Below are positions 34,622-61,954 of a DNA stretch of 64,000 nt, in pieces. A program made the translations under genes and the position numbers. The stretch is from Hormiphora californensis (lineage: Eukaryota > Animalia > Ctenophora): NCBI GenBank assembly GCA_020137815.1, contig CM035356.1, positions 2,046,001-2,110,000 on the forward strand, in the 5' to 3' direction. Below the pieces are notes generated by a model. That model was not told the origin of the DNA, ran no database searches, and saw only the letters and a list, made by a program, of their open reading frames with translations. The stretch's first letter is position 1; each line of letters begins with the position of its first letter.

Positions 34622-37600
34622 TCACAGGGCTTTCACTCTTTCCAGGGCTTCTGTAGCTCGCGAGGAGGGATTATTGCTGTTATTCCCTCTCGACCGTGTT
34701 CTGGTGTTCTGAAATAGGAAGAGTATAGTTAGCTGACAATAATATTAATTAATATTAATAGTTAGCTGAACAGCTAGGGATCGAGAGCTCGGAGGAGATT
34801 GGTGGGGTGTGATCACGAGAGGGGGAATGGATAAAAAACACTGTGCTAGATGGATGAACGGGGGATAAAATATCAACCCATATATGATCTCTGAAGATAA
34901 TACAAATTGCATTGAACCTACCCCTCCGGCGGGTGTGCTGGTGAGAATGTCGTTTAGGGAATCTCCATCATTCTTCTTGGGTGTTAGACCCGAACCCGTG
35001 TTGCTCCGTTTACCTTTCGCTCCATCTCCTGAAAACAGATAGAGTGATATTGGTAACATTTAAATTAGTAATAGTAAACACTGGTCTAATGTGTCGATGA
35101 AATTATTCATCAAATTCAAAACACACACATGGGTAATCTACAGATAAAACCCCGGGGACACAGTAAATAATTCGTTGGGGACACAGTAAATAATTCGTTG
35201 GAAAAACTTGATCATGATGATAAAAACAGCGTAATTAAGAGGGTTAATTAATTAGAATTTTGATGGTTAACACAGGCACCTCGCATTTCCTTCTGAGGCT
35301 TAGCACCACGCCGCAGGTTTGGTGATGATTTCCCACCTATTTTGTAGTACGTAATAAAACAAAATGGGAAACAAACCATTATGGGGACCATTTAATGATT
35401 CCACCCTTAGAGTTAGAGAGATTATCACTTTCTTGGGGCCCTTTGTTATAAGAATAAGATCCCAGCTACCTTTGTAGTAAAATTGATAGAAAGAGGTCAA
35501 AGGTTCTTACGTGGTTGACGTTGTTTTGTCCGGACGGGTCGGTCTCTATACGCCTTTCCGGTCTTGAGACCAATCAAAATGTCATCCAAGACACCCTCTC
35601 CCTCGCCTTGGTCATCGAGAATCTTGCCGTACCCCTTACTCCTATAAGGGAAGAGATTCTTGGTTATAAGGGGAGCGAACCAACCATAAATCATACAATT
35701 GGAGGGTTGGAGGGGTAAGCGGATATATCGAGTCAGATTGAATAATATGCATCCGATTGTGTACGTACGTCTCCTTTTCTTTTTCTCTCTTCATCTTCTC
35801 CATTTCCTTCATCTCCTTCTGTTTCTCCTCCCTCTTCTTGGCATCTCTGATCTTAGCGTTCTCAGCACGAGCAGCCTGGGGGAGGGGGAGTTTAGGGGGG
35901 GGGGGTGAGAGAGGGGGTTGGGATTGGGCAAGTAAATATGGGGCTATCATTATGGATCAATACACTTTATCTGGAAACGTTGGGGAAACGTTTTCTTTTC
36001 AAGCTCCCTCGCACATAAGATTCCGCTGTGAAACCAACCTCAAAGTCATTGCAGAAGGTAATAATGTCACTGAAGAAATCCTCGATATTCGTCTTCTTGG
36101 GGTCCTCACCATAGTACGTGATCAGCTCAGTCACGTATTTGCCCATACTCTGGTAGGCTGTCTCCAGTTTATTGTACTGATCCTCAGCCACCTCCAAGAA
36201 TGCAGACATCCGTGTTCCAAACTGGTCATCCAAACTGTTGGGGAGGGAGAGATTTGAGTTGGTTTATCGAGAAACATTTTATGGACAGGGGAGGTGGGGG
36301 TAATGTTCCTACCGAAACTAAGAGGGTATACAGTGTATTAATACACAGCAGTATCTAGTTCGGAGAGGGGAGGGAAATACAGATCCAGTTGAGCTTACAT
36401 ACCTTTCTGGAGTTTTATGGAATTCAAGCTCCCTTTTCAGGTTCCCCAAACTCTTCTTCATTCCCCTCAGCTGCTTTGACAACTGGTCATCACATACTCT
36501 CCTCGCTTTGGAGACACTCTTCAAATCGTCCTAGGGTAGAGGATCGTAAAGCAAATTAAATCCACACACTAACTCTCGATCTCCGAAGGTTTTACTATCA
36601 CTATGCCCTATGGTAACTATGGTAACTATTTACTATGGTAACTATGGTAACGTACCTTGAAGTTAACCCACTGTGGGTGTTTCGTTTCCAGAAGATCAGC
36701 TAAGAAGTGCAACATGTTCGTTCGGTTATCTTGAGTCTTCGTGTTTTGCAGCTATTGAGGAAGGGAAATTATTCATTAATTCTCTCTGTCAAAATTATAA
36801 TTTAGACAAGGAGAATGATAAAAGTATGGCGAATTGTAAAAAATGGTTGCTTGGAAACTGTTTGCTGTACCTTGGTGAGGAAGTTGAGTTTAAATCCGTA
36901 CGTTGAAGCGTTCCTTGATCCAGAATTCATGTAATTACCAATCAATAGAATCAACTGAAAAACAAAGTAGGTGTCACTTGCTGCAGTTTTTTATCATCAT
37001 AGATATGGTGTTTTTTTTCCTTCTTTTGGGGGGGGGGAATACTATCCCCCCCAAAGAAGGGGATAGGGGGGCACTCCGGTAAACAATCTTTGATGCTGAG
37101 AGTTCTCTTTATCAAACCCCTCACCTCGAGTGTTTTGGCGAACTTTTCTGACTCCCTAACTTCCTCACATGCAGCCATGACGTTAGCGATATCAGGAGTT
37201 AGCTCCTTGAGCTCCTCCTCGAACTTCTTTCGGAATACCATGGCTTGTAACCGGGGCTCAACCCGTGGAATGTTACTCAACTGAAGAAGAAGTAATTATC
37301 AGCTCAATAATATATATCATTGATTAGCCAAACATGACCAACCATGTTCTATCATACCAATGGACAATGAATCATTCTACTAAACACGTCTAAGCAACTG
37401 TCAACTAACCACAAATGCGAACTGTTCAGCAGGACAGAGATCGTCATATTCCCCCTTGAGCTGTCTAAGATTACCCATCTCCTCAGCCGAGGGCAGGTAC
37501 CGCAACATTGACTCTAGTACCGAGGGGCCTGAAAATAGAGAGTTGTTAACAGGAAATAGAGAGGTTAGGAGGAATACAAGGACATTGGGAGAAGAGGACC

Positions 37601-40600
37601 TTTTTTGGGTAAAAGTTCATGAATTTCATGAATTTCTGAACTATTAAACTTACTTAGTGAGCTCTCCGAATCGTCACACTTCAGGACAGATACTCTGATT
37701 TCTTCAAAGGTATAATTCTTCAGATTGGCGTTGAGTAGGATGCCCAGGTTTTGTGACATCTTAGGATCGATCACCTTCAACTCCTTCACCTTCTTCTTGG
37801 GTAGTGCGATGGCTGCTGCAGATTCTGAGAGGTATGTGGTGTTACAAATCATACCCCAAACAAAGTTACAAAAAAGGAAAGACTTTGAAATTACCTTTGA
37901 CTTGTTTTTGTGCGAATTGGCTGTTAATCTGTTTGAACAAATCGGTGTTCTCCAACTCCACCTCCCTCGTTTTAGCCCAGAAAGTTTGTTTGTTAATGGA
38001 CCTCATGGGGATCTGGGACCAGTTCAATTTCTTAACCGTTACCTGGGATAAATATGGGGATTATACTTAGATCATTCTAAATAGAGGTATAACTCAGATA
38101 AATCGTGTGATTTTATTCCATATTATAAAGATTAAAAGACGCCTGTGTGTTGATGTAAATGTAGTGCTATCACGTATAGATTTTGAGGGAGAGAGATGGG
38201 ACTCTAGAACTTAAGAAGATCTTTATAAATAGCGCTATTTATATTCACTATTATATATTTCTATTGTTCTCTCTATTTCTCTTTCCATCTCCTGTATTCC
38301 TCTCCAGGTCATGTGTCTCTCACTTTTCCGCTATGCGGGGGTACAAAAGCAAGTTTACACACAGTACAACTAGCTGTATCTTGAGATATATTAGCTCTTT
38401 TCCTTTGGATCGCTTTGCTTTGAGTATCTCCTTAAATCACCAAAATATCTGCACATTAATTATCTCAGTTCTGGTGGCCACGTTGATACGTCATGTTGAA
38501 AAACTGGCGATGCTACGGGATAGTCTTCCTCCTCATGATCCCCACTATACCCCTGGCCATCTACAAATACACACTGGTAGTGAACCTGTATGCTATTGCA
38601 GACAGTCAGGCGGTTCAGTTCCTTAACATCGCATATCTTATCATGACTATCAGGTATATGACGTCACTTTATAGGGAGTTTTTAGGGTTTAGGTTGTTCT
38701 TGAAAAAGTACCTAACTGTTGCCTTATTCGACCTTCTCTCTAGAACAAAATATCTCAACGTGTACGGGGGTTCCACAGTGGCCTTTTTCATGGGAGTAGG
38801 TGGTCATTAAGGAAAATATTTTTTTGAACCTATCTGGTAGCTTTTTTGACGTAGAATCAAATGCACCCCTCACTCATGCCTTGATTTTTTGAGGAAAGTG
38901 GTGTTTTTCCAAAAAGAAGGGTAATTGAAAAATTTTCGAAAAAATTTTTATGAGCTTATCTGGTAGCTTTTTTGACGTAGAATCAAATGCACCCCTCACT
39001 CATGCCTTGATTTTTTGAGGAAAGTGGTGTTTTTTCAAAAAGAAGGGTAATTGAAAAATTTTCGAAAAATTTTTTATGAACTTATCTGGTAGCTTTTTTG
39101 ACGTAGAATCAAATGCACCCCTCACTCATGCCTTGATTTTTTGAGGAAAGTGGTGTTTTTTCAGTTTTTAGTCTTTTTAGGCTTCTTGGACAACCATACT
39201 TAAAATTTAGCTGGAGCAGGTGAAATGGGGATCCATAACAATTTAAATGTGGTTGATAGTAAGAAATCGAACAAATTTATATCTCATTCAAAATTTTTTT
39301 TTCAAACTTCATCCAGGGCGTTTTTATGGTCAAAAAACGAAGAAAACTTGATTTTTCGACCATAATATACAAAAGTACGCACTTGAAACCTTTTTTATCT
39401 GAAAGGCCAGACAATTTCCTATCTTTTGGTCTATAGGACATCGATGAGGTTCGATGAGGAGGCTGGGGAGAAAGCGTTAAAGAAGGCGTGTTTGTTTACT
39501 TTAAAAAAACGATCTTTCAAAAGTTTGAGACCTAACTAAACACGTTTTCCGACCTTATTTTACACGTAGAATCGATTGCCGATAGAATTGGGACTCTAAT
39601 ATTGAAGGATAACGGTGAAAATCACATGTTGTTAGACCATGAATTTTGTTAAGCTTGGATTATCCGATGGGTAGACACTAGACATGTTCCTGCAAAAAGG
39701 AATTATACATTTTAACGCCTTGTAATAGTCGACCCATTCTCGCTCCTCGGAGCCCTCTAATTCACCGGCAGGTGCAGGAGCCAATCAGCAGCAGTGAGGA
39801 GAACGAAGAAGATCAGTAGATGCCCACCATTTCATTATAATCTATTATTTGCTTTTTATCTCATCATCTTGACCACTTTTATGCAAAAAAGGACCACACA
39901 AAGACGAAAAAACGTGTTTTCACCGTTATCCTTCAATATTAGAGTCCTAATTCTATCGGCAATCGATTCTACGTGTAAAATAAGGTCGGAAAACGTGTTT
40001 AGTTGGGTCTCAAACTTTTGAAAGATCGTTTTTTTAAAGTAAACAAACATGCCTTCTTTAACGCTTTCTCCCCAGCCTCCTCATCGAACCTCATCGATGT
40101 CCTATAGACCAAAAGATAGGAAATTGTCTGGCCTTTCAGATAAAAAAGGTTTCAAGTGCGTACTATTGTATATTATGGTCTAAAAATCAAGTTTTCTTCG
40201 TTTTTTGACCATAAAAACGCCCTGGATGAAGTTTGAAAAAAAAATTTTGAATGAGATATAAATTTGTTCGATTTCTTACTATCAACCACATTTAAATTGT
40301 TATGGATCCCCATTTCACCTGCTCCAGCTAAATTTTAAGTATGGTTGTCCAAGAAGCCTAAAAAGACTAAAAACTGAAAAAACACCACTTTCCTCAAAAA
40401 ATCAAGGCATGAGTGAGGGGTGCATTTGATTCTACGTCAAAAAAGCTACCAGATAAGTTCATAAAAAAATTTTCGAAAATTTTTCAATTACCCTTCTTTT
40501 TGAAAAAACACCACTTTCCTCAAAAAATCAAGGCATGAGTGAGGGGTGCATTTGATTCTACGTCAAAAAAGCTACCAGATAAGCTCATAAAAAATTTTTC

Positions 40601-43600
40601 GAAAATTTTTCAATTACCCTTCTTTTTGGAAAAACACCACTTTCCTCAAAAAATCAAGGCATGAGTGAGGGGTGCATTTGATTCTACGTCAAAAAAGCTA
40701 CCAGATAGGTGCAAAAGAAAATTTTCGTCAAATTCTTAGTGACCACCAAAAGGCCACTGTGGGTTCTAGTCTCTAGAACCAACAGTTTCGATTTAAAGAG
40801 CTGTCCTTAGCTTTCTAGCCGGTAGCCTGACAATTCCCAGTTTCTAACTCCATCCTCTCAGTGGTATGCCGGCGTCCCTCTGCTACGAGAGAGCTATGGA
40901 GATACGGCCCAGTTACCTTGTTCCCACAGTAGCCGGTATCCAGGTAAAAAGAGAGGGACATTCTGCTCGGGTGTAACTTGGAGAAATTCAAAATTCATAT
41001 TTCACCAGAGTTTTTTCAAAGTGGTTACCAAACCTCTCAATTTCTGTCTGGGTGTCTCTCTCCCCAACATCTCCCACTTTCTACCAGGGTCTATCAGCCC
41101 TGCTGTACGGTTTAATAATGTCCCGTGAGGGTGTATTTCATCCTACAACAAAACTCTTCCTGGGTATCATCACCGGTACACCCTGCTACATTATGTACTA
41201 CTTTACACGTGAGTAGTTACCATGGTTACCATGGTTACTGCAGTTTAGCTGTTACCATGGTTATTGGTTTAGCTGTTAGTTACCATTGTTACTTGTTTAG
41301 CTGTTAGTTACCATGGTTACTTTTTAGCTGTACCATGGTTACTGATTTAACTTTTGTTTAGCTTTCATGTGTGGGTTTGTAGCCTATTACCCCTGTCTCG
41401 AGGTATAAGGGGAGGGATAGGTGGCAAATGCGTGGGTGGAGATTCTAACAATGTTTCCACAACCACTTCCCTCCCAGGTAACTACATAGATCGGCACCTC
41501 ACGATAGAGATATCACGTGTCCACAAGATAGAGCTGGGGACCCTCAACTCAGCCATGACTATGACCAGCTTTGTGTTGTTGGCCCTCTTTTCAATGCTGA
41601 CTGGGAAACTTTTTGCGGCATTCTCCCTCCGAGATGCGACACTACTTGCAGGGGGAATCTGCGGGGCTACCTGCATCCTAACTGCAGTGTTATTAACTGT
41701 TGCTCTCCGGCCCTTCGCAGCCATACCAGAAAATAAGAAGCGGGGTGAGAGGAACACATTCGCACAGTTTGGTAACCAATGGCAACGCTTCAAATCAATC
41801 CCCATCCTCAAGATAATAGTGGCTGTGGTAGTAGGACGGTGTGTGCTAAAGGGCAGTTATTACGATTACATCCTGTTAGAATGTGGACTAACACAGGAGC
41901 AACTCAGTTGGAATATTGCTGCGTTTTATGTCATGTTGGCTATCGGTTCAATCATCAACATACACAAGAAGAAGCTAGGTTTCACAGACCAGTATATCCC
42001 TATTTATGCCCATTTCAAGGTCTGGCAATTAGCCAGCGCTGTGTATCTCTCTGTCGCCTACTACTTTGTGATATTCCTACCGTGGTACCAGGGTGGGGAA
42101 CTATTGCCTACTGCTGCTACTGCACTAATGGAGACGCTCCCTAACTCTACTCAAAGTGAGATCATTCCAACAGAGATGGTGACGGAAGCAGCTGGATCAG
42201 GGGGTATAGCCCTGTGGCTAATAATATTTATCTTCTCAACTCTCCTCCTCGCAGCATTTGCAGAGTTCGAGGTACTTGTTATGAACGAATTCTACCAGAT
42301 AAACATCCCTAAGGAGGATCGAGGTGCGATTGTGGGGGTGGACGAGGTTCTAACCCTGATCCTTCTCTCTGCTCAAAGTGGCCTGGGTCTGTTCCTGGAG
42401 GAACAATGGCTGATGACGGAGATGTTCATTCTCCATCTGACTGTGGTGACGGCAGGTTTGGTACTGAGTGTGTGGTACTTGATTGTGGATGATAAGAGAG
42501 TGACGAGTAATAAACTCCACCGTGGAGAGGAATCCCCATTAATGACTATTGACTGAAGTAGTGTAGTGGTGAATATACCGGGCTAATTGTAATTATGATA
42601 GTCACCGTAACAATTGATCATGATTTGCGTTCCGTGTTTAACTTGTTTTTAGACCGGATTCTGAACCATATTCCAAAGTGTGTATTTGTGTGTATTTGAT
42701 TGAGATTCTAAATTGTGGATTTGATAATTCCTATTTCTTACCGGTAACGTGTATGTTTTCTTCTTCGTAACACCCTCAGGAAGAGCGTTCCTGCCCGCAG
42801 CTGCACCCGGGGCACGGGGAGGTCCAGGGGCGCCCGGTGCTCGTGGTGGACCTGGTGCTCGGGGTGCGCCTGGTGCTCTAGGTGCTCCTGGGGCGGGAGG
42901 GGCACCAGGTGCAGGCGGGGCTCCTGGGGCTCGGGGTGCACCCGGCGCAGGGGGCGCTCGAGGGGCACCGGGTGCTGGTGGCGCTCGTGGGGCGCCAGGG
43001 GCTGGTGGTGCACCTGAAGGGATTGATTGTTAGGGAAGAGAAGGAAGACATGGTTCTATAATACCACGAAACATCACTATTAAATGCCCATTCTAAACCA
43101 CCCAGTATTACGTGGTGCACCAGGAACTGGCGGGGCTGGTGGCGCTCCGGGAACACGGGGAGCAGGAGGAGCTGGAGGGGCACCGGGGACCGCTGAAATA
43201 AAACAAGTTCATCTTTAGTTTGTTGTCATGTTGGTTCCAGTCGAGTCGTCATTCGTCCAGTCAGTCAAACAGTCAGGTCAGCATTCAGCAAGTCGAGGAT
43301 GGTCCAGGAGAGTCAAATTATGTGATGTTGTCAGGCTGACAAGTTAGTCCAGGGGGTCTAACAAGTAGAGACGAGGACCCAGCTAGTCGAGGGCGTCCAA
43401 GTTTCCCCCAACAACCCATGATCTCTCTTTTTTAGCACAAAAAGCAGTTGTCATTCCCTTGTCCACAGTCTAGTCACTAATAATTGTATCACATGACTAA
43501 CTAACAATATTACTCACGGGGTGCAGGTGGAGCTCGAGGGGCACCAGGAACGGGTGGGGCAGGGGGTGCACCGGGGACTGGGGCTCCTGATCGGGGTCCT

Positions 43601-46600
43601 GCCGCTGCTGCTGCAACTGCACGGTCTTTCTGAAATTAGGAAATAGAAGCTGACGTGAACCGTTCAAACAGGACAAATTGGAATGTTCAATGTACCAATA
43701 TCAAATATAAGTGTCCCTTCTAAGCACTCAAAACTCTGAAATAAAATGATCCTAAAATTATTACCTCAGCCAGAATCGCCTTCTTCTCTTCCTCAAACTT
43801 GGCCATTTTTGCCTGGTACTCTACAAAGGCTTTAGAATACTTTCCCTCAGCCTCCTCCAGTTCCTTGGTTCGATTTGCAAGCTCCTGCTCCAACCCTACC
43901 TTGGCCTTTTCCAGTTCTTTCAACCGCTGTTCTTCAACCAATGTTTCTAATAGGAGAAGACATGTGTCAAAGTTGTTTATTTGGGGTTAGAATGATGGTC
44001 TTGGATGAGTTCTTATTCAAGCCCCGTCCTATTCTAATTTCTAATTTCGATAAATTATTGTCGTTTTAGCACTTACCGATGACATTTTCAATGTTACAAT
44101 CCTCCAGTCTTTTAACCTTGAAATCAGGGTCTACCCCTGACTTTTGGAGGACTATCTGGCTGATCACATCGTCAATTAGCCGGAAATACTGTGGCCTGGT
44201 GGAGGGGGATTGTATTTAAATTATCTCGGTAAAATATGTCTGTACAGAAATATAGTACAGAAATCTAGTACAGAAATCTAGTATAGAAACACGAGAGGGG
44301 AAAGGTATAAATTCGAGACCCGATAAATTGAAAGTATACTTGTTGGTTGTATTCCTGCCTAATTTTACTCACTTGGCTTCAGGGTCATCCCTAATTAGAA
44401 CGAAATGTTGAAGGATAGAAAGAAGTGATCCCTCGACCTCGGTATGTTTCGCCATGTTGAATATGATCTGGAACAGCTCAAATGGATCCTCAAACTCGCT
44501 CTGAATGTCTCCAAACTTTTGCTGAGGGGAAAAGATGTCAGTGGATCTTAGTGGATCAAAACTGAGAGGGAGATTGGAGCATGAAATGCATGTTTCAGTG
44601 GAAATTCCGGCGGGGGAGTGACAGTATGTCTTTGAGAAATGAGAAGGATAGGGGAGAGACAGTGAGAGGGAGTAGCTCTTACCGTTAATTCGTGATGATC
44701 ATCCTCCTGATTGTTGTCTAGCACTGTAATCTGAACAAACAGCTCGTCATCCTCTACACTCCTATAAAACACAAGTTGTCAACGGGGGGACACTCCTATA
44801 AAACACAAGTTGTCAGGGGGGGGGGACACTCCTATAAAACACAAGTTGTCAGGGGGGGGGGGGACATTCCTATAAAACACAAGTTGTCAGGGGGGGGGGG
44901 GGACATTCCTATAAAACACAAGTTTTCAAGGCTATTCATTCAATCAATTATCAATAATAGTTTAGACGCTCTGCGTTGCGGTTGAAGGGCCGCCTAATTT
45001 AAGATACACAATACCTCAAGTTAGGATCTGAGTCTGACCTGTTGAGATCTCTGAGGCTGGGTATCACGTGACGCAGTCCACAGTTCATTAACTCATTCCG
45101 GATATGCATTCGGAATTCAAGCTCACTCGGAAACGTCGTTAGAGAATTTGCAAGCTGTGATAGAGATTAAATTAAACTAAATTGAATCACACCAGAAATA
45201 TTAGGTCATTCGGTAAATATCTGGACAGGTATGATTGTGAGAGAACGGAGCCAGATAGAGCCAAGCGACCTGTTCCAGCGTCTTCCTTGGACATTTTTAG
45301 GTTGGACTAGGGTGGTGGGAACCTTCGCCTGCTGGCAGTATTGCCTCACGAGCAATATGTTTCAATGCTACTCTAGCTGCCGCTTTATGCAAGAAAAAAC
45401 TGTGGCACTACGGATGACTGAATATGTCATGGCATTTTCTCTATTGTGGACAGATGATCGGTTTGACCAGTGTTCCTAGATCACTTTTTAAGCCTGAATA
45501 TGATGCAACCATAATTGAAGCGTTTAGATTCCATCTTCATCCTTAAAAATTGGATTTTTGCCAAAATTGCGCCTTGCGCACTTCATGGCCGTTTTTGTAC
45601 GTTCTAAACGTCTAAATGACTTGAATCCAACGTTAAATGTTAGCTCATACAATTTTCTAGGTCCTATGTTAGTTTTATTACGATCGGTCAATGGATACTT
45701 GGCTCATGGCGGCTTTTTTCAACATTTGTAAAAAAATTAAAATCCAGCTTTACCAAATCTAGCGAAAATCGCTTCCCCATGCTAGAAATTTTATCCAAAA
45801 ATTTCAGGAAGGTTTATGGAGTATCTCAAGGCATTTAATAAGCAATATATAGGGTTAAAAACTTTCCGAATTATCCGGAAGTAGGTCATATTGGTCCAAA
45901 ATTGAGCATAAAGCGGCAGCTAGAGTAGCATTGAAACATATTGCTCGTGAGGCAATACTGCCAGCAGGCGAAGGTTCCCACCATCCTAGTCCAACCTAAA
46001 AATGTCCAAGGAAGACGCTGGAACAGGTCGCTTGGCTCTATCTGGCTCCGTTCTCTCACAAACATACCTGTCCAGATATTTACCGAATGACCTAATAAGA
46101 AATTCCCCCATGATCACACCAGAAATAAGAAATTCCCCCATGATCCATATTATATCTTCGTCATTCCCCCAAGATTTTATACCGTTAAAATTCCGATGGT
46201 TAATTGTTGAGGGGCATGTTCTGCTTTTAGGTTATCCACTAAAACCTGAAACCTTGGCCTCCCTGTTTGCTCTCCATAACTCGACAGAGCCTCTAAAACT
46301 GCCTGATGCCTGGGGGATGGGGGTGATAATCAAATCACAAGTTCCCAACATCCCTTTATCTGTCGTTGAAATCACCAAATACAAATGCCCCCAATCATCA
46401 TGAACTATCAGTTAACTCCAAACCATCCCAATTTGTTATCCACTTCACCCCTATAATTGTACTACCAGACAGATCAACTCACCCTTCATCGCTGACATAA
46501 CTAACAGCGGCGAGGATCCGCAACACTTCCGTCATCATGACGTGGTTCCGGGGATCAAGACACTTTGTCAGCAGCAACATACCCTCCTTGTTCTTCATCA

Positions 46601-49600
46601 TAGACATCAAACCGTACTGATGGGATATGGGGGTGTTAATATACCCTCCCGTACTATTCAACAGTAGGGGGTTGTTGGATTTGAAGAGATGGTGAGGTGT
46701 TGTCAGGTTTTATTCATGTTATTGGATATGGGAGATGATTTCAACCAATAACAGAGCTAGGGCACTGCAATTTTTCACTCGTACCCTGTACACATGGCAC
46801 TGTAAATTATTGTCAATATAATTCACTCAGAGTACGTACCTTGTTGTTCATGAATACTTTGAGGCACTTGACACACTCGTGTGTTACTTCACAATAGTCC
46901 CGTTCCTGACTCTTTTTCAGCCAGTTTAATAACAGCTCTAAACCGTTATCCTTACCTGTAAAACGTGTTTACAGTTAGAATTGGGTTAGGAAATGTCACC
47001 TATATGATCTTAGAGAGAAACATTTCATCAACATCAAATCAGAAATATGTGGTGCTCTGATGAATTACTAACCAAAGTTTTTCAGCCACGATATCGTGTA
47101 ACTTTGAAGACTAACTCTCAGCGCTTCCAGTGCTTTCCGACTCGTGTCTTTGTCCATTTCCTTCCGTAGCTCATGTGTAAAGTACTCAGGTGTACCTCTT
47201 TTAGGACCATCTGCATTCTGTGGATTTCGTTACTGTATAAACTACCTGATATCACTGACTAACCCTCCAAATATATCAAGAACTACTGTCGTTGTGCCTC
47301 CCAATTCCACATTCCTGTCCCACTAGTACTGGGACAGGAATCAACAGAATTGGGAGGCACGACACCTACCTCCGCAGGTTCTGCCACCACGTTCTCCTTC
47401 AGACTTTTGTAGTGATTAGACAGCATGTTCTTTTGTAGTGCTGTAGTCATCTTCCGAATGGGTGTTCTCTTTTGATCAGGAACATTCATATCGTCCTGAA
47501 AGAATGAACAGTTATTGACTTGTATTGTTATGTTATAACCCTCCTTTGCATTTGTGCGGTGAAACAGGGTCGAGCAAGGCACGGCTTGTAGAGGTAATAG
47601 AGTATTTTATATATTGGATTGGGATATATTCCCTCTCTTTTGTGATGTCACATCGTGACGTCATTAACTAATAGTTAAGTTATCACCACCTACCATCATT
47701 TTCTCCAACTCAGTTTTCAGCTCATCTGCCCCCATGTTCTCCACCCTCTCATCAGAGACATCGTCCGCCCCTCCTGTGTGGTGTGGAGGATTGAGAAATA
47801 TAATTGGGATTGTATACTATGAGTCTTTATCATAATACGGCAAAGTAAAACATACACTAATTTGGTAGTATCGTTGTGTATAAAGCTACTAACCAGAGGG
47901 ATTTTGGGCGGGTTTAGGGGCAGAGATGGCATCTCCCTTTTTGATTCTCTTATCCTTTACCATTGAGATGGTGGTGCGAGGGGCGGAGTTTCCTCAGTGT
48001 GCCCCTTCTAATCACATGCTAAACGCTGGCAATCAGTGGTTAGGGGGTTGGAGAGAGGCAGTCAGAAGTGGTTAGGGGGTTGGAGAGAGCTGAGAGGCAG
48101 TCAGAAGTGGTTAGGGGGTTGGAGAGAGCTGAGAGGCAGTCAGAAGTGGTTAGGGGGTTGGAGAGAGCTGAGAGGCAGTCAGAAGTGGTTAGGGGGTTGG
48201 AGAGAGCTGAGAGGCAGTAAGAAGTGGTTAGGGGGTTGGAGAGAGCTGAGAGGCAGTCAGAAGTGGTTAGGGGGTTGGAGAGAGCTGAGAGGCAGTAAGA
48301 AGTGGTTAGGGGGAGTCATGTCGCAGTTAGAAGTTGTATGGAGGGACAGGAAGTGGGGTAGTTAGAAGTGTTAGAGTAGTTTGTACCGGGGTAAAACACT
48401 AAACAGAGACGCACAAATAAAAACCACATTTAATTGATTCAGAGTGGGACATATATCTCTCCCGCTGCTATATACACACAGTATATTAAGTGTTTTGTAT
48501 GTGTGTGCAGCAGAGGTCAATTGTTTTGCAGCGTGCAGGCTGAATTGCCCCCCAAATTAAAAAAGGGGCCGCGGGCCAAGAGGGCCCATTCTGTGTGTGT
48601 AAGGTAAAGGGGAGGGACGCGCATGATAAATGCTGACATCAAGAACGGTAAAGAATTCTGTTGTGCGCGCGTTACATCGTCCCAGTGTGTGTATCGCTAC
48701 TGCTGCAGCTGGAGGCGGCAGTGTGTAGATCGATCTTTTGGGTTTGGTTGTGTGTGTGTGAGTGTGTCCTTTCACACACAGCAGTAGAGACAGCAGATAT
48801 ATCAACTGACAGGAAGAGAGATGTTGTTCAGGCCTTTGTTCGATACATCTACATACAATACCTGCCGAGAGAGAGGTAGGATGTTTAATGGAAGAGTGTG
48901 TGTGTTATGGGAAAGGAACTAAACAATTACATGTAGGTACATTTGTGTACAAACTACACAATCAGGACAAAGCTCACAACAAATAACAACCCTGCTGCAA
49001 AATGGGAAAAGCAAAAGGGCAAAAAATAGGATATTGAGTACGAGTAACTCAAGCTAATATTCCATCGAAATCATATATCACCCACCTATCACTTTTCTGC
49101 TTTCTCCTTCTGTCTAACATCTCCTCGTGAAACCTGCCTTCCTTTCGAGCAGACTTTAGTTCTTTTGTACCCTGAAATGGGATAAAATTAGATATTGAGA
49201 TACAAGGGGAGGGGAGAAGAAAAAAAGAAATACGGTGGCAAAATTAGACATGTCAAAAATGTCCTCTCCATGGTCCCTCTCATTACACGAAGTATATTTT
49301 ATATCCCTGTATATATCAGATATACACACACAACAAGCCAATCCATCTGTGTCTATATTTTTGCTGTTGTCTGTCTCTCTCTGTGTTAACAGGTGTGCAG
49401 ATTGCCGTTTATATCCCGGCACCCCCCTGCTGCATCGTGTAAACCAAACACCTCATCAAATGGTATAACAGTAGTCAATTTCAAAACATATAGCTAGTCA
49501 ACATTATATGATAACAGTGCAGTCACTTTCAAAACATCATACACAGTTATCAGTCACTTTCAAAATATCATACACAACTAGGGCTCAGTACTATAAAGTT

Positions 49601-50072
49601 GACTAGCTGCTCAACTTATGATACCGATCCCTACTTCACCAGGGAAGATGCTGGTAGTAGTCTGCACGGTAAACTATACTGTCACTAAATTATGCTATCT
49701 CTCTCATGATTTATATGACGGATGACACCCAAAATGACATACTCCGTACTCGATCATAACTAACGTTACTACGTTAAGTCATCATCACTCCGGGCCCTCC
49801 TGTTATAGGTCACAGAACGTGGGCAGAACGTCCAAACTAGAATATATCAACCAAATATTAAATAAACAACCAAAATAATATCAAATTGCAGGATGTATAT
49901 GCAGATTTAATCAGAGATTAAATATGGTTAACTTTTTTAAATAGAATCTCACCTTGTCTGAAATTTTGAGTTTTTTGTCCTGGAATTTCTGGTAGAGTTT
50001 CACATAATTCACTTCATACTCCCGAGCACTTCCCTTTTTCTCCTTTTCCGCAAGGGTCTCCTGTTTTCGAAC
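34622..50072 (-). CDS. DIAPH: Diaphanous-related formin (GBD/FH3, coiled coil, FH1, FH2, DAD); 5' end not resolved
   Basis: [83 protein letters not shown]-terminus ALERVKAL*. Confidence 0.9.
38493..42556 (+). CDS. Nested multi-pass membrane protein, MFS-like (exons 38493-38653, 40862-40943, 41088-41208, 41478-42556; ~480 aa)
   Basis: In-frame GT-AG junctions, ~12 hydrophobic segments, [14 protein letters not shown]-type motif; lies inside formin intron 38043-42741. Confidence 0.75.
38774..40761. mobile_element. Transib-like non-autonomous foldback element
   Basis: CACAGTG termini, 5-bp TSD GGTTC, ~850-bp inverted arms each with ~3 x 126-bp subterminal repeats. Confidence 0.9.
44757..44925. 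repeat. Minisatellite with variable G tract, ~5 copies
   Basis: CCTATAAAACACAAGTTGTCAG(n)ACA units. Confidence 0.9.
45201..46095. mobile_element. mariner/Tc1-like MITE
   Basis: TA TSD, ~180-bp TIR TTAGGTCATTCGG; uninterrupted copy of the target repeat at 46111-46143. Confidence 0.88.
48036..48312. repeat. 39-bp G-rich minisatellite, ~7 copies
   Basis: GTGGTTAGGGGGTTGGAGAGAGCTGAGAGGCAGTCAGAA units. Confidence 0.95.
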
Positions 50073-51333: not shown

Positions 51334-53679
51334 ACTCACACACACACACACACTCTCTTTTCTCTCTCTACCAACTTGTCCAAATCTAACTACAATGCCA
51401 TGTGTACAATAAGTGATCTGTGATCTATAAACACGGACAAAAGACCGCTATTTACAATTACAAGGCACCGGTGGAAAACAATAAAACCTGAGAAAAGGAT
51501 AGTAAAAGGATAGTAAAACAGTTATTAAGTCGGACAAACAGCCATTTGCATTTGGGTGAAAATATCTTAGACCCTAACAATGGATCCTGCTGAGTGCTCT
51601 TGGGACAGTGCCAGTTATGTTTCAACTTGCACCATTCAAGCTGTATCATAGAAAGATATCTTTTAGAATATTTTTGAAGCATGCAGCTTAATGTACATGC
51701 ATTGTAATATCCGATGGTCCCTATACGAAACCGATGGGAAACCAATAGCCTAAAATAAACCTTGCTCAAAGATTTAAAAAATTTCGGACCATGAATGATT
51801 TACCAGCCGGTTTCACAACTTCCCCTCTATCATTTACCTTGTCTCCTCGTGTCCTGATTACAACATGTGAATTATCCTTCTCTTCCTGTCCTGTACAGCC
51901 AATAGATCCACTCTTATCAAAAGTTAGATATCGGCCATTACACCCTACTAACGTCTGAAAGGTTATGGGTTATAGAAGATGGGAAGAGACAGAAAAGTAA
52001 AGTGGACAGGAAAATTATGGAAGAAAATGGGGGAAGGTTTTATCAGAAATAATTGGATTAAAAAAAGAATTAATAATGGTAAAACATGAAGCTGAAATCT
52101 GAATGAGGTTATCATGAGATGGAGAGTTAATTCATCCACAACCCGCCTGACAGCTACTGTCAACGTAAAATGAGGCGTATTCTCAGACCTCCTCTCTTTC
52201 TTTCATCACAAAAAGATGGCATTGAAGGTGGTGCAGGTGCGTATGTAAAACTATAGGTCATGTCCTAAGTAATTTATACCTATACACTAGAAATGGGTCT
52301 GAGTGACTAAATGTCACGAATACTAAGTTGAATGATACCTGTACAATGGAATATACACCTGCCGACCACAAGTTGGACCCCGACCAGCCATGGCAACAAG
52401 TGAGAAACACAGGGTCCCGTGGTCCATCCTAGCTAGACCTTAAAAACTTCCGTTGTTTTTAATTTGAATATACACTCTCAAAATGTTTCGATCTATTACC
52501 TTGTTAGAATGTTTTCATGGTTTTCCCGAAGGGTATGCGAGCGTCTCTGAGTTTGCTTTTGGTCGTTCCCTGATCTCTAGCTCATCTTTCATACTTCATT
52601 CTCGCCTCTTTATCCACACGTCCCAACGTCTCTTGAGGTCTTTGAATGCTTCTTCTTCGTTATACTAGTTCTTGCTTTCCCAACCCTCTCCTCTCGGCTT
52701 TCCTTCGTAGTCGAAGAACCTCACGCACCTCTGGATTATCTCTCCATGGCTTTATTCTCGCCCCTTTCTTCTTTTTTCCTCTTCATGGGACAGTTTGTGG
52801 GTACCCGGTTAACCACCACTGATCGCTAATCAGTAGTCCCGGCCGGGTTCCATGTTAACGGGGGGAAATATACACTCTGGGGTGATCTTAGGCAGGTGGG
52901 TGGGTGGATAGGTTTGTTCAATTGCGGTTCGTCACCCAGGATTTTCTCAAAACACAGGGTGTTCACCGGGTTTCGTAACTGTAGTCTTGGGGTAATCACT
53001 CCACACAATCTTCAATCTTCACTGGTCCACAAACTTTGGTGCACAGCACCAAGTAAACGCTCACATCGACATCAGATACGGTCAAGAAACACGGGCAAGT
53101 TCTCCCTCACAAGGATGGTAGGTGCTCTCGGGCAATAAATACTCACTGACTCACTCTTGGCTTTAAATATCCCGACAAACACACAGTCACTTGAATCCGT
53201 ACCAGAAACAATTCGACAACACCAAAGTTTTGTACCACTTCTCCGCTCGAACTGTCGACAACCGTCCGAGTAAAAGAGGCGATACTAATCGGACAGACCC
53301 GTCTGACTGACTTTCACTATGGCTCTCTCTCTACTCAACTACCTTTCTCACTCTAAGCTATCTGACAGTCTTAGTAAGCTCATTGTTCACACCTCACTTC
53401 ACCAAGCTCTCGCACATGGCTGGGAAAACGTGACAACTCACCACTAAACTAGGGAAAGGGATACTGGGGTAACAGGGGTATCTCTCATATCCCACATTCA
53501 CCCTCTCCTGTGAAACAGAATTGACCCATTACTCCAGGTTAGAAAATATTCTCTTCTCAAAGCTCTACTGACTACTCTAATACTAAAAGAAATTAAACTC
53601 TACAAGAACTCACTCAATATAAACTCTTCTCATATATGACATTTCGTCTATGGCGGTTATGGTTTATCTGGACAAGCAC

Positions 53680-54270
53680 TCTCAGGGACAAACATTCAAA
53701 CAGACTAACTCAGGGACAAACTACCTCAGGGACAAACTATCTCAAGGACAAACTACCACAGGGACAAACTAACACAGGGACAAACTAACACAGGTACAAA
53801 CTAACACAGAGGCAAACTAACACAGGGACAAACCAACTCAGGGACAAACTAACACAGGTACAAACTAACACAGAGGCAAACTAACACAGGGACAAACTAA
53901 CGCAGGGACAAACTAACACAGAGACAAACTAACGCAGAGGCAAACTAACTCAGGGACAAACTAACACAGGGACAAACTAACACAGAGACAAACTAACTCA
54001 GGGACAAACTAACACAGGCACAAACTAACACAGGGCACAAACTAACACAGGACAAACTAACACAGGGCAAACTAACGCAGGGACAAACTAACGCAGGGAC
54101 AACTAACGCAGGGACAACTAACACAGGGACAAATTAACTCAGGGACAAACTAAACACATGGCAACAACTCAGGGACAAACTAACACAGGGACAAACTAAC
54201 TCAGGGACAAACTAACACAGGGACAACTACTACACAGGGGCAAACTAACACAGGACAAACTACACAGGGC
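53680..54270. repeat. 16-bp tandem repeat inside the LTR element
   Basis: GGGACAAACTAACACA units. Confidence 0.92.
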
Positions 54271-55711
54271 AACAACCTACAACCTAACTAAACAAATAAA
54301 CACAGGACAAAAGGACAAAGGCAGCCACTAACATTCAAGCAGACACTTAGACAGCCACCATTTTCTAACAAACGTCACATAAAAACCATGATTATCAACA
54401 ATTATTTTTCCAGACGAAACCCACAACACGTCTTAAGATCTGTCATAAGGCGCTCTCAAGATACTAAAGATGATATATAAAGTTATAATTCTCTAATTAC
54501 TCTCAGGATTTGCTCCATCTGGTTCTACAAACTGCAAAGAAAGTGCACATGCACGTCGATTCTTCACAATTCTCGAATTACTCTCAGGATTTGCTCCATC
54601 TGGTTCTGCAAAGAAGAGTGCACATGCACGTCGATTCTCATCACAAAACCAGACGGGCAACTCAACTTTATGACCGAAAGTTACAAGCATACTACACAAG
54701 TTCCTATCAGTCACAAAATGGCTCAAGGTGTTACTGATAAAATTCGCCTATCACAGTTGGTCAGACTGATACTGAAATTGGGTGACGGGGACCAACCTTC
54801 ACCACAAATGACATCACAACTTCTTGTGTCAATTCGTATAGACGATACTACGATCGAAACACGGTTCGTCTACTTGAGCCTTCGCGACGTCTCGCATCTA
54901 ATCTCATCTAAACCCGACGTCTCAGCGTGTTCTGGGTTAATAACATTCTCTCAATTACATATTCTCACTCTCTTTCGTATGTCACTCTGCGCAGCCCAGA
55001 ATCACTAATCATTCGGGTTAGAACGCTCAACTCTTCTCGATTTACAGCTCACTCTCCAATCTCTAGATAAACTCAAAAGCTCTCAGCATTACTCTTTTTA
55101 TGGGGGCGCTATGTCTAAACTATAAACGTGGGGATAATGGAGGGTGAACACGTTCATAGTCCAGATCAAGCTAGTCTCAATGACTAACTATATAATATTC
55201 TCTAAATTCTTAGCACTGTCCTAAGAGAAACACACAAACGGGCACTTGCTCTAACACTCATCTCAGAACTCTCAGCGGATATACTAACTTTTACTAGACT
55301 CAGAATTTTGCAAACGGGTGTTGTTTCTGGCACGGAAATCATAATAGGGCAGCAACCAACACACATTTCATCAGATCAATGATTACGAAGAACAACTCGT
55401 CATTAGAGACACCACAGTTTGAGCCAGTCAAGAGAAACGAATTCACTTGACACGTTGTTCTTTCACTACACAAAGTTCGTCATATTGTAAAACGTGTCAA
55501 TCCTTTACCCATACCAGCACAGAACAATATAAATCATCCCTTGACAGTCTAACAGTTTGCCTGTAACGGACAACACTTAGCTATGGTGACGAATCCGAAA
55601 TCCACACCTCTGGTGGCTATGGGACCAGGGCACTTGACCACGGGAACACTTGGACACGGGACCACAGATCCACAAACCGCAAGAATCAAGAATCAAAAGA
55701 CCGCAAAGAAC

Positions 55712-55998
55712 CAGCATCACAGGACCGTCAGAACACAGCAACAGACCGTCAGGAACACAGCATCACAGGACCGTCAGGAACACAAGCATCACCAGGACCG
55801 TCAGGAACACAGCATCACGGACCGTCCAGGAACACCAGCATCACCAAGACCGTCAGGAACACAGCATCACAGGACCGTCAGGAACACAGCATCACAGGAC
55901 CGTCAGGAACACAGCATCTCAGGACCGTCAGGAACACAGCATCACAGGACCGTCAGGAACACAGCATCACAGGACCGTCAGGAACACAGCATCACAGC
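55712..55998. repeat. 25-bp tandem repeat inside the LTR element
   Basis: CAGGACCGTCAGGAACACAGCATCA units. Confidence 0.92.
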
Positions 55999-58900
55999 AC
56001 ATGGCTGCCAGAATTACAGCATCACCAGGACCATTGACCAAAGCATCGCCAGAACGACCAATGGAAACCCGGAACAGTCACACAGGAACAGATGTCAGCA
56101 TAGCACCAGGAATCGCCAATGTCTCCGATCGTTTCTCTTCGAACCTCGTCAGTTCCACGATAACAAACCTGCCTGATATTCCCACAATACTTGGACTCCT
56201 CTCTCTGTTCATGATTGGTCCCTTCGGGGTCGCCAGATGTGGGGTACCCGGTTAACCACCACTGATCGCTAATCAGTAGTCCCGCCGGGGTTCCAGTTGA
56301 ACGGGGGGAGAATATACACTCGGTGGGGTGATCTTAGGCAGTGGGTGGGTGATAGGTTTGTTCAGATTGCGGGTTCGTCACCCAGGATTTCTCAAAACAC
56401 AGGTTCACCGGGTTCGTAACTGTAGTCTTGGGGGGTAATCACTCACACAATCTTCAATCTTCACTGGTCACAACAACTTTGGTGCACATGCACGCAAAGT
56501 AAACGCTCACATCGACATCAGATACGGTCAAGAACACGGGCAAGTTCTCCCTCAGCAAGGATGGTAGGTGCTCTCGGGCAATAAATACTCACTGACTCAC
56601 TCTTGGCTTTAAATATCCCGACAAACAACAAGTCACGTGATATCCGTACCAGAAACAATTCGGAACAACACCAAAGTTTTGTACCACTTCTCCGACTCGA
56701 ACTGTCGACACCGTCCGAGTAAAAGAGGCGATACTATCGGACAGACCCGTCTGACTGACTTTCACTATGGCTCTCTCTCTACTCAACTACCTATTCTCAC
56801 TCTAAGCTATCTGACAGTCTTAGTAAGCTCATTGTTCACACCTCACTTCACCAGAGCTCTCGCACATGGCTGGGAAAACGTGACAACTCACCACTAAAAC
56901 TAGGGAAAGGGATACTGGGGTAACAGGGGTATCTCTCATATCCCACACAGTCCTCTCCACAAGATCCTCGATTATCCTCGAATAAGCAGCCAAAGCATCC
57001 TCAGCAGATTTAGACTCCATCACCGCACTCCAATCCACATCTCCAAAAGCTCGCCTGAACAGTTCCAGTCAACTGCCCTAAAATCCTGTATGTGTCAATC
57101 TGTTCACGGTTTTTGTATTCACTTCTAGTAGTCTCGATTAACAGATCAGCTAAAACCATAAAGTGATCCGAAGTTGTCCCTTCTGGAAATATTGTCACTG
57201 ATTGAACTTTGGAAACTCTGTCTTTTTGGCACAGCAAGAGATCAAGAGTACCTCCTCGAACATGGGTGGGTTGCATTGGAACTAATTGATCAAACCCCAG
57301 AGAGTCAAGCAGTGCAAGTAATTTCTTGGCATAGAAGTTCTGGGTGTCGTGGACTTGGAAGTTAAAATCACCCATCAGAACGGGATATCCAGTTTTGCAG
57401 ACTAGCTCGGACAGATAGTCATTAAACTCATCCAGGAACTGTGCTTCCGTATATCTTGCCTTGCCCGTGTAAGGAGGCCTATAGATATTGCACAACACTT
57501 GTAAGATCCTGCCCATTACCGATAAGGGCTTCCTGGACCTGAATGATTTAAACTTAGTCTTTACTGGTGTGTACTTGATCTTTACGCCATCCCTGTACAA
57601 GATCCCAATTCCTCCTCCCAGAGCGTTCGGCCCTAGGAGAGGAGAAGATGTTCCAACTATAATCTCTGATCTCCTGAAGTTTTGCAGTGTCACTTTGCTT
57701 CAGATAAGTCTCCTGTACCAAGCAGATGTCGCATCCTTTTTCCTCCAAGTGGTTAATTACACCTGACGTTTTATTCAATTGAGGAACTTAGTGAGCCAAT
57801 CTTCCAAGTCGTTTTCCTCTCAGGTCCTCCCATGCCCTCGTCTGATACAGGTTTTTTTCCTCCTTAGTCACGCCACTTGTGCTCTCCATGAGTCTAGCTT
57901 TAGCATTGATGTAGAATGGACACATACTGCTTGAGGCTGGGTGACCTTAGCATGACGCTTGTCCTCTTTGCTTCCTCCATGATCACAGTTGACACATTTC
58001 ATTCTGCTCACTACGTTATCCTTCTTGGCTTGGCAACCCCTAGTATCATGATCCCCTGTCAGAAGGCACAAACAGCAGATTTATCCTTGTTTGGACAGTA
58101 GATGGACCCTGCTACATGACCAAAGCGCTGACAGTGGAAACACTGAGTGACATAAAACCGTTCCTAACAAAGTGCTGTCGGAGCTTCAAAAAGAGCTTGT
58201 CCTTCCGGTCAGCAATCACCTCCTCACCTCTGGGGTTACCTGAATCACAGCATATCTCCCTGTCTTGTTAATATGACCACCTTCACAACATGACCCTCCT
58301 CAACAAGCCTCTTCACTGACTCATTCTTATCACTGACAATCTCGGAGAGAAGACTATCCTTCTCTAACAGGTCCTGATCAAGGTCATTACCATTATCCGG
58401 GGATCCTTCTTCTTCTCTTTCTCCACTGCAGAAGACACATCAAGGAATGGAGAGAGAACCCCTTCGCTTGTTCCATCTGATCATCCGTCTCAAAACATAT
58501 TAGTCCGTCTCTTGTTACGGAAAGATCTAACACCGGAATATTCTCAAACGCTGTTTCCACTTTTGTTCGTACAACTTCGGTCCATTTCTTCTCACACACA
58601 TTGGTCCATCTTCCCCTTTGTCCTTGATTGTCAGGTACCTCTTTATCGGAGTCACAGGAGCCACTGCTCCAGTATTTGAGTCAGGAGAGTCACACTGTCA
58701 GGGATGGTTCCTCGATCAGCTGCAAGAATCTTGCTAACCTTGGGAGCTACTAGATCCGGAAGTGAACCTAAGAACCTCTTTCGCTTTTCCAACGTCTCCT
58801 GTAAATCTCCTGCCGGTGATGAAGATACAGATTCAGATGAGTGGGTAGATATGCGTCTGTGTCCGTAACAAAGCATCAGTTGTTTGATAACTGTCCATAA

Positions 58901-59237
58901 ATCGGTTTGGTAGTCCCCCTCGGAGGTTCCGCCGTATCATCCTTGATGCTCTGTGCATGCTGGCACCTTTACAACTATCAGAGAGCTCGTGGCGAGCAAC
59001 TTACCCTCCATATCTGTCTTGCACTATAACATCATGGGTAGCCACACCGACATCCTGTCCTGTATAGAGGCGCGAGGAACCGTTCCTTGCAAGTCTTGGC
59101 GTCCTTGGTTTAACCCAACGAGGTCCTCTGAGATCTGTTTACTTAGAAAAACCAGACACGTCTTCTCTTGTCTTTTCTTTAAGGAGAGGGATAAACAGAA
59201 GTCTCAGAAGGATTAGCGAGGGGCAGCAAAACGGATC

Positions 59238-59281
59238 CTCAAATTAATTTGTTTAAAGTAGTGTTGAAAAGTTTGAAACTC
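59238..59281 (-). other. Genomic copy of the ctenophore spliced-leader exon at the LINE 5' end
   Basis: GAGTTTCAAACTTTTCAACACTACTTTAAACAAATTAATTTGAG, followed by GATCCG rather than GT; identity with the SL is from memory, not a search. Confidence 0.85.
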
Positions 59282-59574
59282 CTAGGAGTGTTCTCTCCAT
59301 CTTACTGAGGTTTGTTCTCTAGCTGGTACCTGTTTTATTTTTTCTGTATTTTGGCTCGTGGCGAGCAGAAGTGTGAAGCACGTTTTGGGTTTTTTCATAG
59401 CACGAGTGTTTTCTATCTTTTGGACTTTTAAACCATCTTTTTAGAGTTCCAGGACTCTATCTCAGTCTGTTATGTTTTCAGTTACCGATAGTTATGTGGG
59501 CCGTTGTTTTTTTTTCTTTACCATTTTTTGTGCAATATTAAGGATAAGTCGGCAGGTATATTCAAGTATGTTAA

Positions 59575-59668
59575 CCGTTCAGATCATCCCTCAGTGACAG
59601 CAACAGTTCTACTGCTCTGTCCCTGTCGGATATGGGCGGAATACAAACATAGTTATTATTATTATTAA
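59575..59668 (+). mobile_element. Possible 3' end of a LINE/SINE
   Basis: Short GC-richer segment ending in a (TTA)n tail. Confidence 0.35.
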
Positions 59669-61560: not shown

Positions 61561-61954
61561 TGAACTTTTTATCAGTGTACACTATCAAACCGGTCCTTGA
61601 AACTGGCAGCAGAATTTATACTCATAGCCGGTGAGCCGGGAAGAGATTGCTCTCATAACAAGGGAGATTCACAAGCACAGGAGATATAACTGATAAGAGG
61701 CAGCTCATACTCTGACAAAATGCGATATGATATGTAGAATCAAAAAAGCCCACGAAGTAATTCATGGTAGTAAAATTACAGTCGGAAGAGAAAAGCAAAA
61801 AAGGAGCGAGATATGAGATCGACAACTTCAGTGTTGGCGTGAAATATTTGAAATATCGATTGTTTGCGGAGTGAATGGAGCTGCGCGGCTCTTTCAGGTC
61901 CGCGCGCGCCTTGTATTTGCGCGCACCATTGTATGCTGAGGTTCCAAATCTCGA

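What the first reader, a model, noticed from the sequence alone, without database searches (positions are those of the whole stretch)
52470..59282. LINE retrotransposon whose genomic 5' end is a complete spliced leader: candidate trans-splicing-dependent, promoterless retrotransposon cycle
Seen: the LINE (-) begins with the 44-mer GAGTTTCAAACTTTTCAACACTACTTTAAACAAATTAATTTGAG, fused directly to ~200 nt of UTR and ORF1. No GT donor follows, so this is not an SL RNA gene, and one extra G precedes it. Established (from memory): ctenophore mRNAs carry this SL. Inference: the LINE RNA was trans-spliced and then reverse-transcribed to its 5' end; the extra G may be cap-templated. Trans-splicing would remove an internal promoter, but the inserted SL ends in T-rich..AG and could itself act as the next acceptor. 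Host read-through plus trans-splicing would then regenerate an identical capped LINE mRNA each cycle. The copy lies co-oriented upstream of the formin coding exons.
Basis: partly seen in the sequence, partly recalled or inferred. Interest (0 to 1): 0.9.

Follow-up and report, generated by a model that had tools for sequence, protein, structure and literature searches.

The report
Comb-jelly LINEs headed by spliced leader
A broken jumping gene (LINE) in a comb-jelly genome carries the exact leader that these animals splice onto their mRNAs, four distant relatives start with the same leader, and the group therefore likely copies itself from trans-spliced RNA and may need no promoter of its own.

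Summary
The 44-mer is real and identical to the published Hormiphora californensis spliced leader (SL). The insertion spans 52473-59666: the SL, 5' UTR, ORF1 and the first ~40% of ORF2 are inverted and joined head-to-head to the same family's 3' UTR and (TTA)n tail. The RT domain is missing and an LTR element sits inside. This fits twin priming and puts the SL inside the insertion, so it was likely on the RNA template. The 'extra G' is 3' UTR sequence, and co-orientation with formin follows from the inversion. The SL head is clade-wide: 4 of 4 related contigs that reach the 5' end start with 40-43 unchanged SL bases, although ORF1s are only 43-59% identical. SL-UTR contigs occur in three DNA runs and one RNA run, and no other 5' extension was listed. 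Repeated trans-splicing is likely. Lack of a promoter and reuse of the SL's terminal GAG as acceptor are untested. This scan noted SL-headed LINEs before in dinoflagellates, Perkinsus and Euglena (unchecked AI notes); its search words found none for ctenophores.

The parts
52467..52472 (+). left copy of 6-bp target-site duplication (AATATA)
   Evidence: removing the insert puts this 6-mer at the centre of a 22-bp near-palindrome (10 of 11 pairs; 6 of 63,960 window positions reach this)
52473..52795 (-). ORF2 linker stub (residues ~297-395), outer end of the inverted segment; last ~12 nt unaligned
   Evidence: tblastn P0002 297-363; 80% to L001 2239-2489; weak match on to ~52484, 4 of 2000 shuffles as good
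52796..56947 (-). nested LTR element: LTRs 56947-56238 and 53496-52796 (94% identical, TG...CA), primer-binding-site-like and polypurine-like stretches, 5-bp duplication with one mismatch; tandem repeats inside, no stop-free frame over 207 codons
56948..57833 (-). ORF2 N-terminal part: APE endonuclease, frameshifted
   Evidence: Pfam PF03372 and PF14529 above cut-off; 85% identical to P0002 over 178 aa
57788..59053 (-). ORF1 (about 430 aa in intact relatives, two CCHC-type knuckles), broken by frameshifts and stops
   Evidence: 85.7% nt to L001
59054..59237 (-). 5' UTR, 184 nt
59238..59280 (-). spliced leader, 43 nt from its first A to the terminal AG
   Evidence: exact match to published SL; other SL loci in run X1 diverge upstream of 59280 (table 7)
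59280..59652 (+). 3' UTR of the same LINE family, joined head-to-head to the SL (base 59280 shared)
   Evidence: 82% to L001 4318-4709, 84% to L002; 4 contigs of X5 run from 59280 into the normal ORF2 end (table 7)
59653..59667 (+). (TTA)5 tail
   Evidence: same kind of tail in L001, L003, L005
59667..59672 (+). right copy of the target-site duplication (shares its first A with the tail)
35970..50072 (-). neighbouring diaphanous-type formin exons (context only; 5' end of the gene not mapped)
   Evidence: Drf_GBD, Drf_FH3 and FH2 hits at 35970-46709; more upstream exons read by eye

Best explanation
This is a dead, 5'-inverted copy of an APE-type LINE whose clade begins with the host spliced leader, likely because its RNA is SL-trans-spliced before each round of reverse transcription. 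Shown: exact SL fused to the 5' UTR here and in four diverged relatives; inverted 5' part joined to the family's 3' UTR and tail, RT missing, 6-bp duplication at the outer ends. Inferred: twin priming made this copy, the second cDNA running to the RNA's first base, so the SL was on the template. Inferred: the SL stays identical to the host's while the UTR behind it diverges because a fresh SL is spliced on repeatedly. Inferred and untested: the substrate is RNA that starts upstream of an SL-headed copy (host read-through, or upstream starts driven by the element) and is spliced at the terminal AG of the old SL, which resets the same 5' end.
For: SL identity. 4 of the 7 clade loci among 76 kept start with 40-43 unchanged SL bases; the other 3 do not reach the 5' end; the best SL score among the other 69 is 29 against 80-86. 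Among the four, ORF1 is 43-59% and full-length ORF2 56-66% identical, and the UTRs of (window, L003) and (L004, L005, L063) align no better than shuffles. SL-headed lineages lie on both sides of the split (support 0.98) that holds all but one of the close relatives. SL-UTR contigs in X1, X5, X15 and RNA run X11, with 0-11 differences from this copy; no loose end behind 59237 in the 18 of 20 rows shown. No SL-plus-relic tandem in 5 of 5 heads. SL lies inside the target-site duplication. Hydra full-length CR1 transcripts carry an SL (PMC12220107). Outron acceptors are laxer than cis acceptors in Schistosoma (PMC5832876).
Against: The SL ends in GAG, not YAG; 13 of 13 formin acceptors picked by eye are CAG/TAG. 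No RNA 5' end, cap type or strand was seen; X11 is one contig at depth 9 and may be DNA. The four SL-headed contigs share one record prefix, so they are not independent samples, and that assembly's DNA or RNA nature is not given. Contigs show presence, not absence, so a rare outron-bearing master could be missed. With 18 nt of SL in the stretch, no contig meets the tool's 31-letter bridging rule. No contig was seen across the inversion joint. 5' inversion is reported almost only for human L1; ZfL2-1 gave none (PMC4245944), and no microhomology was found at the outer junction.
Confidence: 0.6

Rival explanations
1. Rare master copies keep a promoter and outron and are renewed from unspliced RNA; the SL-headed copies are trans-spliced offspring and mostly dead ends.
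For: Ordinary LINEs have internal promoters (established). L1Tc makes unspliced transcripts from Pr77 in a trans-splicing host (PMC1874656, search listing). Avoids the weak GAG acceptor. One low-depth X5 contig joins the SL to a site 143 nt further down the UTR, as alternative acceptors would.
Against: No contig continues the UTR into non-SL sequence in the 18 of 20 loose-end rows shown for 371 contigs laid; 0 of 4 complete 5' ends lack the SL. Every lineage would need a steady supply of unspliced retro-copies.
Confidence: 0.2
2. The SL was captured once and is now a DNA-encoded part of the element, acting as internal promoter or translation aid; transcription starts at its first base with no further trans-splicing.
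For: The Ascaris SL exon holds promoter elements for its own gene (recalled; one search did not retrieve it). No acceptor is needed. No tandem SL relics are seen.
Against: Zero differences in 40-43 nt across lineages with 43-59% ORF1 identity, while the SL differs between Hormiphora and Mnemiopsis. Copies lose 0-3 bases at the 5' tip, which would erode an inherited leader.
Confidence: 0.14
3. The element inserts site-specifically into SL RNA genes, as NeSL, CRE and SLACS do, so the SL is target DNA.
For: SL exons are known targets of non-LTR elements (PMC4640811); 718 SL copies are reported in the H. californensis genome.
Against: Here the SL is internal to the duplication and joined to the 3' UTR. 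4 of 4 tails (window, L001, L003, L005) are followed by unrelated sequence, not the GT-led SL intron seen in X1. The endonuclease is APE, not restriction-like.
Confidence: 0.03
4. For this copy's shape only: two separate head-to-head insertions followed by deletion, a later inversion, or a misassembly, rather than twin priming.
For: Short 6-bp duplication; no read support at the joint; many indels against run contigs (table 4); rarity of 5' inversion outside L1.
Against: The two parts are complementary (one lacks all that follows residue ~395, the other all that precedes the 3' UTR), are about equally far from L001 (80-86%), and their removal restores a near-perfect palindrome centred on the duplication.
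Confidence: 0.2

Closest known systems
CR1/L2-group LINEs (APE endonuclease + RT, two ORFs, short tandem-repeat tail)
   Same: Two overlapping ORFs, APE and RT in intact relatives, CCHC knuckles in ORF1, (TTA)n tail, ~5-6 bp duplication like ZfL2-1
   Different: The 5' end is the host SL. Clade assignment rests on recalled features; no labelled reference tree was run.
SL-trans-spliced CR1 transcripts of Hydra (PMC12220107)
   Same: LINE RNA receives the host SL; about 30% of TE Iso-Seq reads carry one
   Different: The passages seen concern RNA; here the SL is in the genomic element across a clade.
SL-containing transposon gene models of Schistosoma mansoni (PMC5832876)
   Same: Six TE models with an internal SL, suggested to be trans-spliced retro-transcribed elements
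   Different: Left open there as possible misassembly; no clade-wide pattern or cycle in the passages seen.
SL-relic retrogenes of dinoflagellates (PMC12014239)
   Same: Trans-spliced RNA returns to the genome with its SL and is spliced again
   Different: Host genes, not the autonomous element; re-splicing at an internal AG leaves SL-plus-relic tandems, absent in 5 of 5 heads here.
NeSL, CRE, SLACS (SL-gene-targeting non-LTR elements)
   Same: SL exon next to the element's 5' end
   Different: Restriction-like endonuclease and SL gene as target; here APE, unrelated flanks, SL inside the insertion.
5'-inverted L1 copies (twin priming; PMC2912911, PMC4245944)
   Same: Inverted 5' part, internal deletion, sense 3' part with tail, duplication at the ends
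   Different: Not an L1; 6-bp rather than 10-20-bp duplication; the inverted part reaches the RNA's first base.

Membership tests
APE-type LINE, CR1/L2 group | APE endonuclease at the ORF2 N-terminus | tested here: met
APE-type LINE, CR1/L2 group | RT domain in ORF2 (this copy) | tested here: not met
   no match beyond residue 363 of P0002 in the window: the copy is defective
APE-type LINE, CR1/L2 group | RT domain in ORF2 (family) | tested here: met
   RVT_1 in L001 and L003
APE-type LINE, CR1/L2 group | short tandem-repeat 3' tail | tested here: met
   (TTA)n in window, L001, L003, L005
APE-type LINE, CR1/L2 group | no RNase H or C-terminal zinc finger in ORF2 | tested here: inconclusive
   Pfam lists only endonuclease and RT families for 2 of 2 full ORF2s scanned; absence of a hit is weak
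APE-type LINE, CR1/L2 group | RT tree placement among named CR1/L2 references | not testable with these tools
   no labelled references held; the tree has unnamed rows only
SL RNA gene | GT donor directly after the exon | tested here: not met
   GA follows; SL loci with GT exist elsewhere in X1 (table 7)
SL-gene-targeting retrotransposon (NeSL/CRE/SLACS) | restriction-like endonuclease | tested here: not met
   APE found instead
SL-gene-targeting retrotransposon (NeSL/CRE/SLACS) | SL exon is 5' target DNA and the SL intron is the 3' flank | tested here: not met
   SL inside the duplication; 4 of 4 tails have unrelated flanks
Twin-priming 5' inversion | inverted 5' segment joined to a sense 3' segment with tail | tested here: met
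Twin-priming 5' inversion | target-site duplication at the outer ends | tested here: met
   6 bp, short and AT-rich, backed by the palindromic empty site
Twin-priming 5' inversion | microhomology at inner and outer junctions | tested here: inconclusive
   1 shared base at the inner joint; none seen at the outer one, ~12 nt unaligned
SL-relic recycling (dinoflagellate type) | DNA-encoded SL at the 5' end of a retro-copy | tested here: met
SL-relic recycling (dinoflagellate type) | new SL followed by a shortened relic | tested here: not met
   single SL in 5 of 5 heads
Promoterless trans-splicing-dependent LINE (proposed) | RNA SL comes from the SL RNA pool at each cycle | not testable with these tools
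   needs raw 5' reads or cap analysis; only contigs were served

The most novel reading that the evidence does not exclude
A whole ctenophore LINE clade has given up its promoter: it is transcribed from upstream, the copied SL serves as the next trans-splice acceptor, and SL-onto-SL splicing resets an identical capped 5' end every cycle. This would be an animal parallel to the protist cases in this scan's unchecked notes, and would make some of the hundreds of genomic SL copies LINE heads rather than SL genes.
Probability: 0.4. Interest if true: 0.85.

Novelty: new variant of a known kind. Interest (0 to 1): 0.67.

Why it matters
Non-LTR elements must regain their 5' end and a way to be transcribed after each round of reverse transcription. 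Known answers are internal promoters, self-cleaving ribozymes and insertion into transcribed gene arrays. Using the host's SL trans-splicing would be another, and ctenophores offer a lab-cultured animal with a chromosome-scale genome and Iso-Seq data in which to test it. It also bears on annotation: genomic SL matches are not all SL RNA genes. The inverted copy acts as a natural 5' RACE, separating 'SL on the template' from 'SL as target'.

Tried and rejected
No whole genome was held, so no census of copies, orientation bias or empty allele was possible. SL pattern scans of viral and prokaryotic collections gave 0; ORF2 scans gave none in viral contigs and 4 distant loci in prokaryotic assemblies, not used. 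The continuation of the 3' UTR into ORF2 is not in the window, which rejects insertion into an older copy of the family. A longest-match search for a duplication found only an off-boundary 7-mer before the boundaries were fixed. X22 (RNA, guessed) covers only the SL: no evidence either way. The X5 joint 59094-59238 is one contig at depth 12 with 2 shared letters and a purine-rich upstream stretch, so it may be a deletion; not counted. Summed contig depths are not copy numbers and were used only as a hint of multiple copies. Cap-templated G: not needed, not excluded. No second SL-like match in the window (next score 28). Derelle 2010 and Malik and Eickbush 2000 were not held, and the supplement of PMC8527503 could not be read; it may describe the 718 SL loci.
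Full report
1. Observation. The 44-mer lies at 59238-59281 on the minus strand, once in the window, with no match in 100 shuffles. It equals the SL consensus printed for Hormiphora californensis, where 718 genomic copies and 56% of Iso-Seq reads are reported to carry it (PMC8527503, passages). The host is therefore a ctenophore of that kind; this rests on the SL alone. GA, not GT, follows. SL loci with a GT donor exist elsewhere: 22 contigs of run X1 leave the window sequence at 59237 with such a continuation. A 184-nt UTR leads to ORF1, then to an APE endonuclease.

2. The copy is not what it first looks like. Full-length ORF2 relatives exist (P0002, 988 aa, 85% identical), but only residues 1-363 match the window and no RT does. 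A 4.15-kb LTR element interrupts ORF2. The 390 bases beyond the SL are the 3' UTR and (TTA)5 tail of the same family on the plus strand, 82% identical to L001 and starting a few bases after the ORF2 stop; four X5 contigs run from 59280 into the normal ORF2 end. AATATA stands at 52467-52472 and 59667-59672, and removing the insert centres it in a 22-bp near-palindrome that only 6 of 63,960 window positions match in quality. One insertion, 52473-59666, with an inverted 5' part and about 1.8 kb missing, is the structure that twin priming gives (PMC2912911, passages). This step is inferred. Against it: 5' inversion was seen almost only with human L1 and not with ZfL2-1 (PMC4245944, passages), the outer junction shows no microhomology, and no listed contig crosses the inner joint.

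3. Three consequences. First, the SL lies inside the duplication, at the point where the second cDNA would end, so it was likely on the RNA and is not target DNA. Second, the two G's before the SL's first A belong to the 3' UTR; a cap-templated base is not needed, though it could have helped the join. None of four relatives has an extra G. Third, the SL points the same way as the formin exons only because of the inversion; the tail points the other way, and the copy cannot encode RT.

4. The SL head is clade-wide. Seven belong to the close clade. L002 holds only the 3' half, L006 begins inside the UTR and L001 is cut inside the UTR. The other four (L003, L004, L005, L063) begin with 40-43 SL bases without a difference, after 5-102 unrelated bases; the best SL score among the remaining 69 loci is 29 against 80-86. 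The four have ORF1s 43-59% identical; the three full ORF2s among them are 56-66% identical. UTRs of (window, L003) and (L004, L005, L063) align no better than shuffles. In an ORF2 tree of 29 rows chosen by length, SL-headed lineages fall on both sides of the split (support 0.98) that holds all close relatives but P0027. Caveats: the four share one record prefix, its library type is not given, and flanks at contig ends may be misjoined through the SL.

5. Runs. Twenty-two runs were listed and five laid. On 59076-59255, 371 contigs were laid; 25 pieces and 18 of 20 loose-end rows are shown. Pieces cross the UTR-SL boundary in X1 (4), X5 (2, with 11 and 3 differences), X15 of a second organism (3 variants, one with 0 differences at depth 1862) and the oligo-dT run X11 (one 368-nt contig over the whole stretch, 0 mismatches, 1 gap). 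None meets the tool's 31-letter rule because only 18 SL bases were given. No shown row continues the UTR into non-SL sequence at 59237; the loose ends on that side fall inside the UTR or are SL with an indel. Contigs cannot show absence, RNA ends or strand.

6. Mechanism. An unchanged SL on lineages this far apart is best explained by repeated addition from the host SL RNA pool (inferred, 0.6). With no outron-bearing copy seen and no SL-plus-relic tandem, the simplest cycle is RNA starting upstream of an SL-headed copy and spliced at the old SL's last AG. That AG is in GAG, while 13 of 13 formin acceptors picked by eye are CAG or TAG (not verified by transcripts). Outron acceptors are laxer than cis acceptors in Schistosoma (PMC5832876, passages), so this weakens but does not exclude the step. 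Whether the upstream RNA is host read-through or driven by the element is untested. Rivals: rare promoter-bearing masters (0.2), SL as an inherited internal promoter (0.14; the Ascaris precedent is recalled), SL-gene targeting (0.03).

7. Known systems. The family looks like CR1/L2-group LINEs (clade name from recalled features, not from a reference tree). Hydra CR1 transcripts carry an SL (PMC12220107, passage and supplementary figure legend). Six S. mansoni TE models contain an SL, left open as possible misassembly. Dinoflagellate retrogenes recycle SLs and leave relics (PMC12014239, passages). NeSL targets SL exons (PMC4640811, passages). Passages of PMC7986045, PMC5240408, PMC10282587 and PMC5137427 added nothing on the question. 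I found no report of a LINE clade whose genomic 5' end is the host SL in searches; most subscription papers and Repbase are outside that library. This scan's notes hold similar cases in dinoflagellates, Perkinsus and Euglena (8 of 59 shown, unchecked); the word ctenophore was met in none, and a look-up by sequence found nothing.

8. Verdict. New variant of a known kind; interest 0.67. The promoterless SL-onto-SL cycle has probability about 0.4 and can be tested with existing ctenophore long-read data.

Noticed in passing
run X1 loose ends at window 59237 and 59280: Other SL loci continue with a GT donor and a T-rich stretch (22 contigs) and have C, not G, before the SL's first A (34 contigs). 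The SL gene exon probably starts at A, so the 5' G of the published consensus may be non-genomic.
   Followed up: partly
window 59094-59238 (run X5): One low-depth contig joins the SL end to a site 143 nt down the UTR after an AG: alternative trans-splice site or deletion.
   Followed up: partly
first 10 nt after the SL in window, L003, L004, L005, L063: A short shared pyrimidine motif (TCC/GCC) follows the SL even where the UTRs do not align.
   Followed up: no
window 52796-56947: LTR element without long ORFs, with two internal tandem arrays (16-nt and 25-nt units).
   Followed up: partly
window 60850-61770 (-): Decayed reading frames that resemble a LINE ORF1 of another family (recalled motifs); no SL-like match near it.
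   Followed up: no
window 62537-63841 (+): Intronless 434-codon frame with two galectin-like stretches (PF00337).
   Followed up: no
window 6988-8046 and 8889-9968 (+): Tandem paralogous C2H2 zinc-finger frames.
   Followed up: no
window 41351-42556 (+): 401-codon membrane-protein frame with a weak MFS_1 match, nested antisense within the formin gene's span.
   Followed up: no
window 38807-40731, 15625-17111, 6155-6975, 33292-34114: Long, 97-100% inverted repeats, probably foldback or MITE-type elements.
   Followed up: no
window 57000-59240: Many one- or two-base indels against most run contigs (table 4): decay of this copy or long-read error in the assembly.
   Followed up: no
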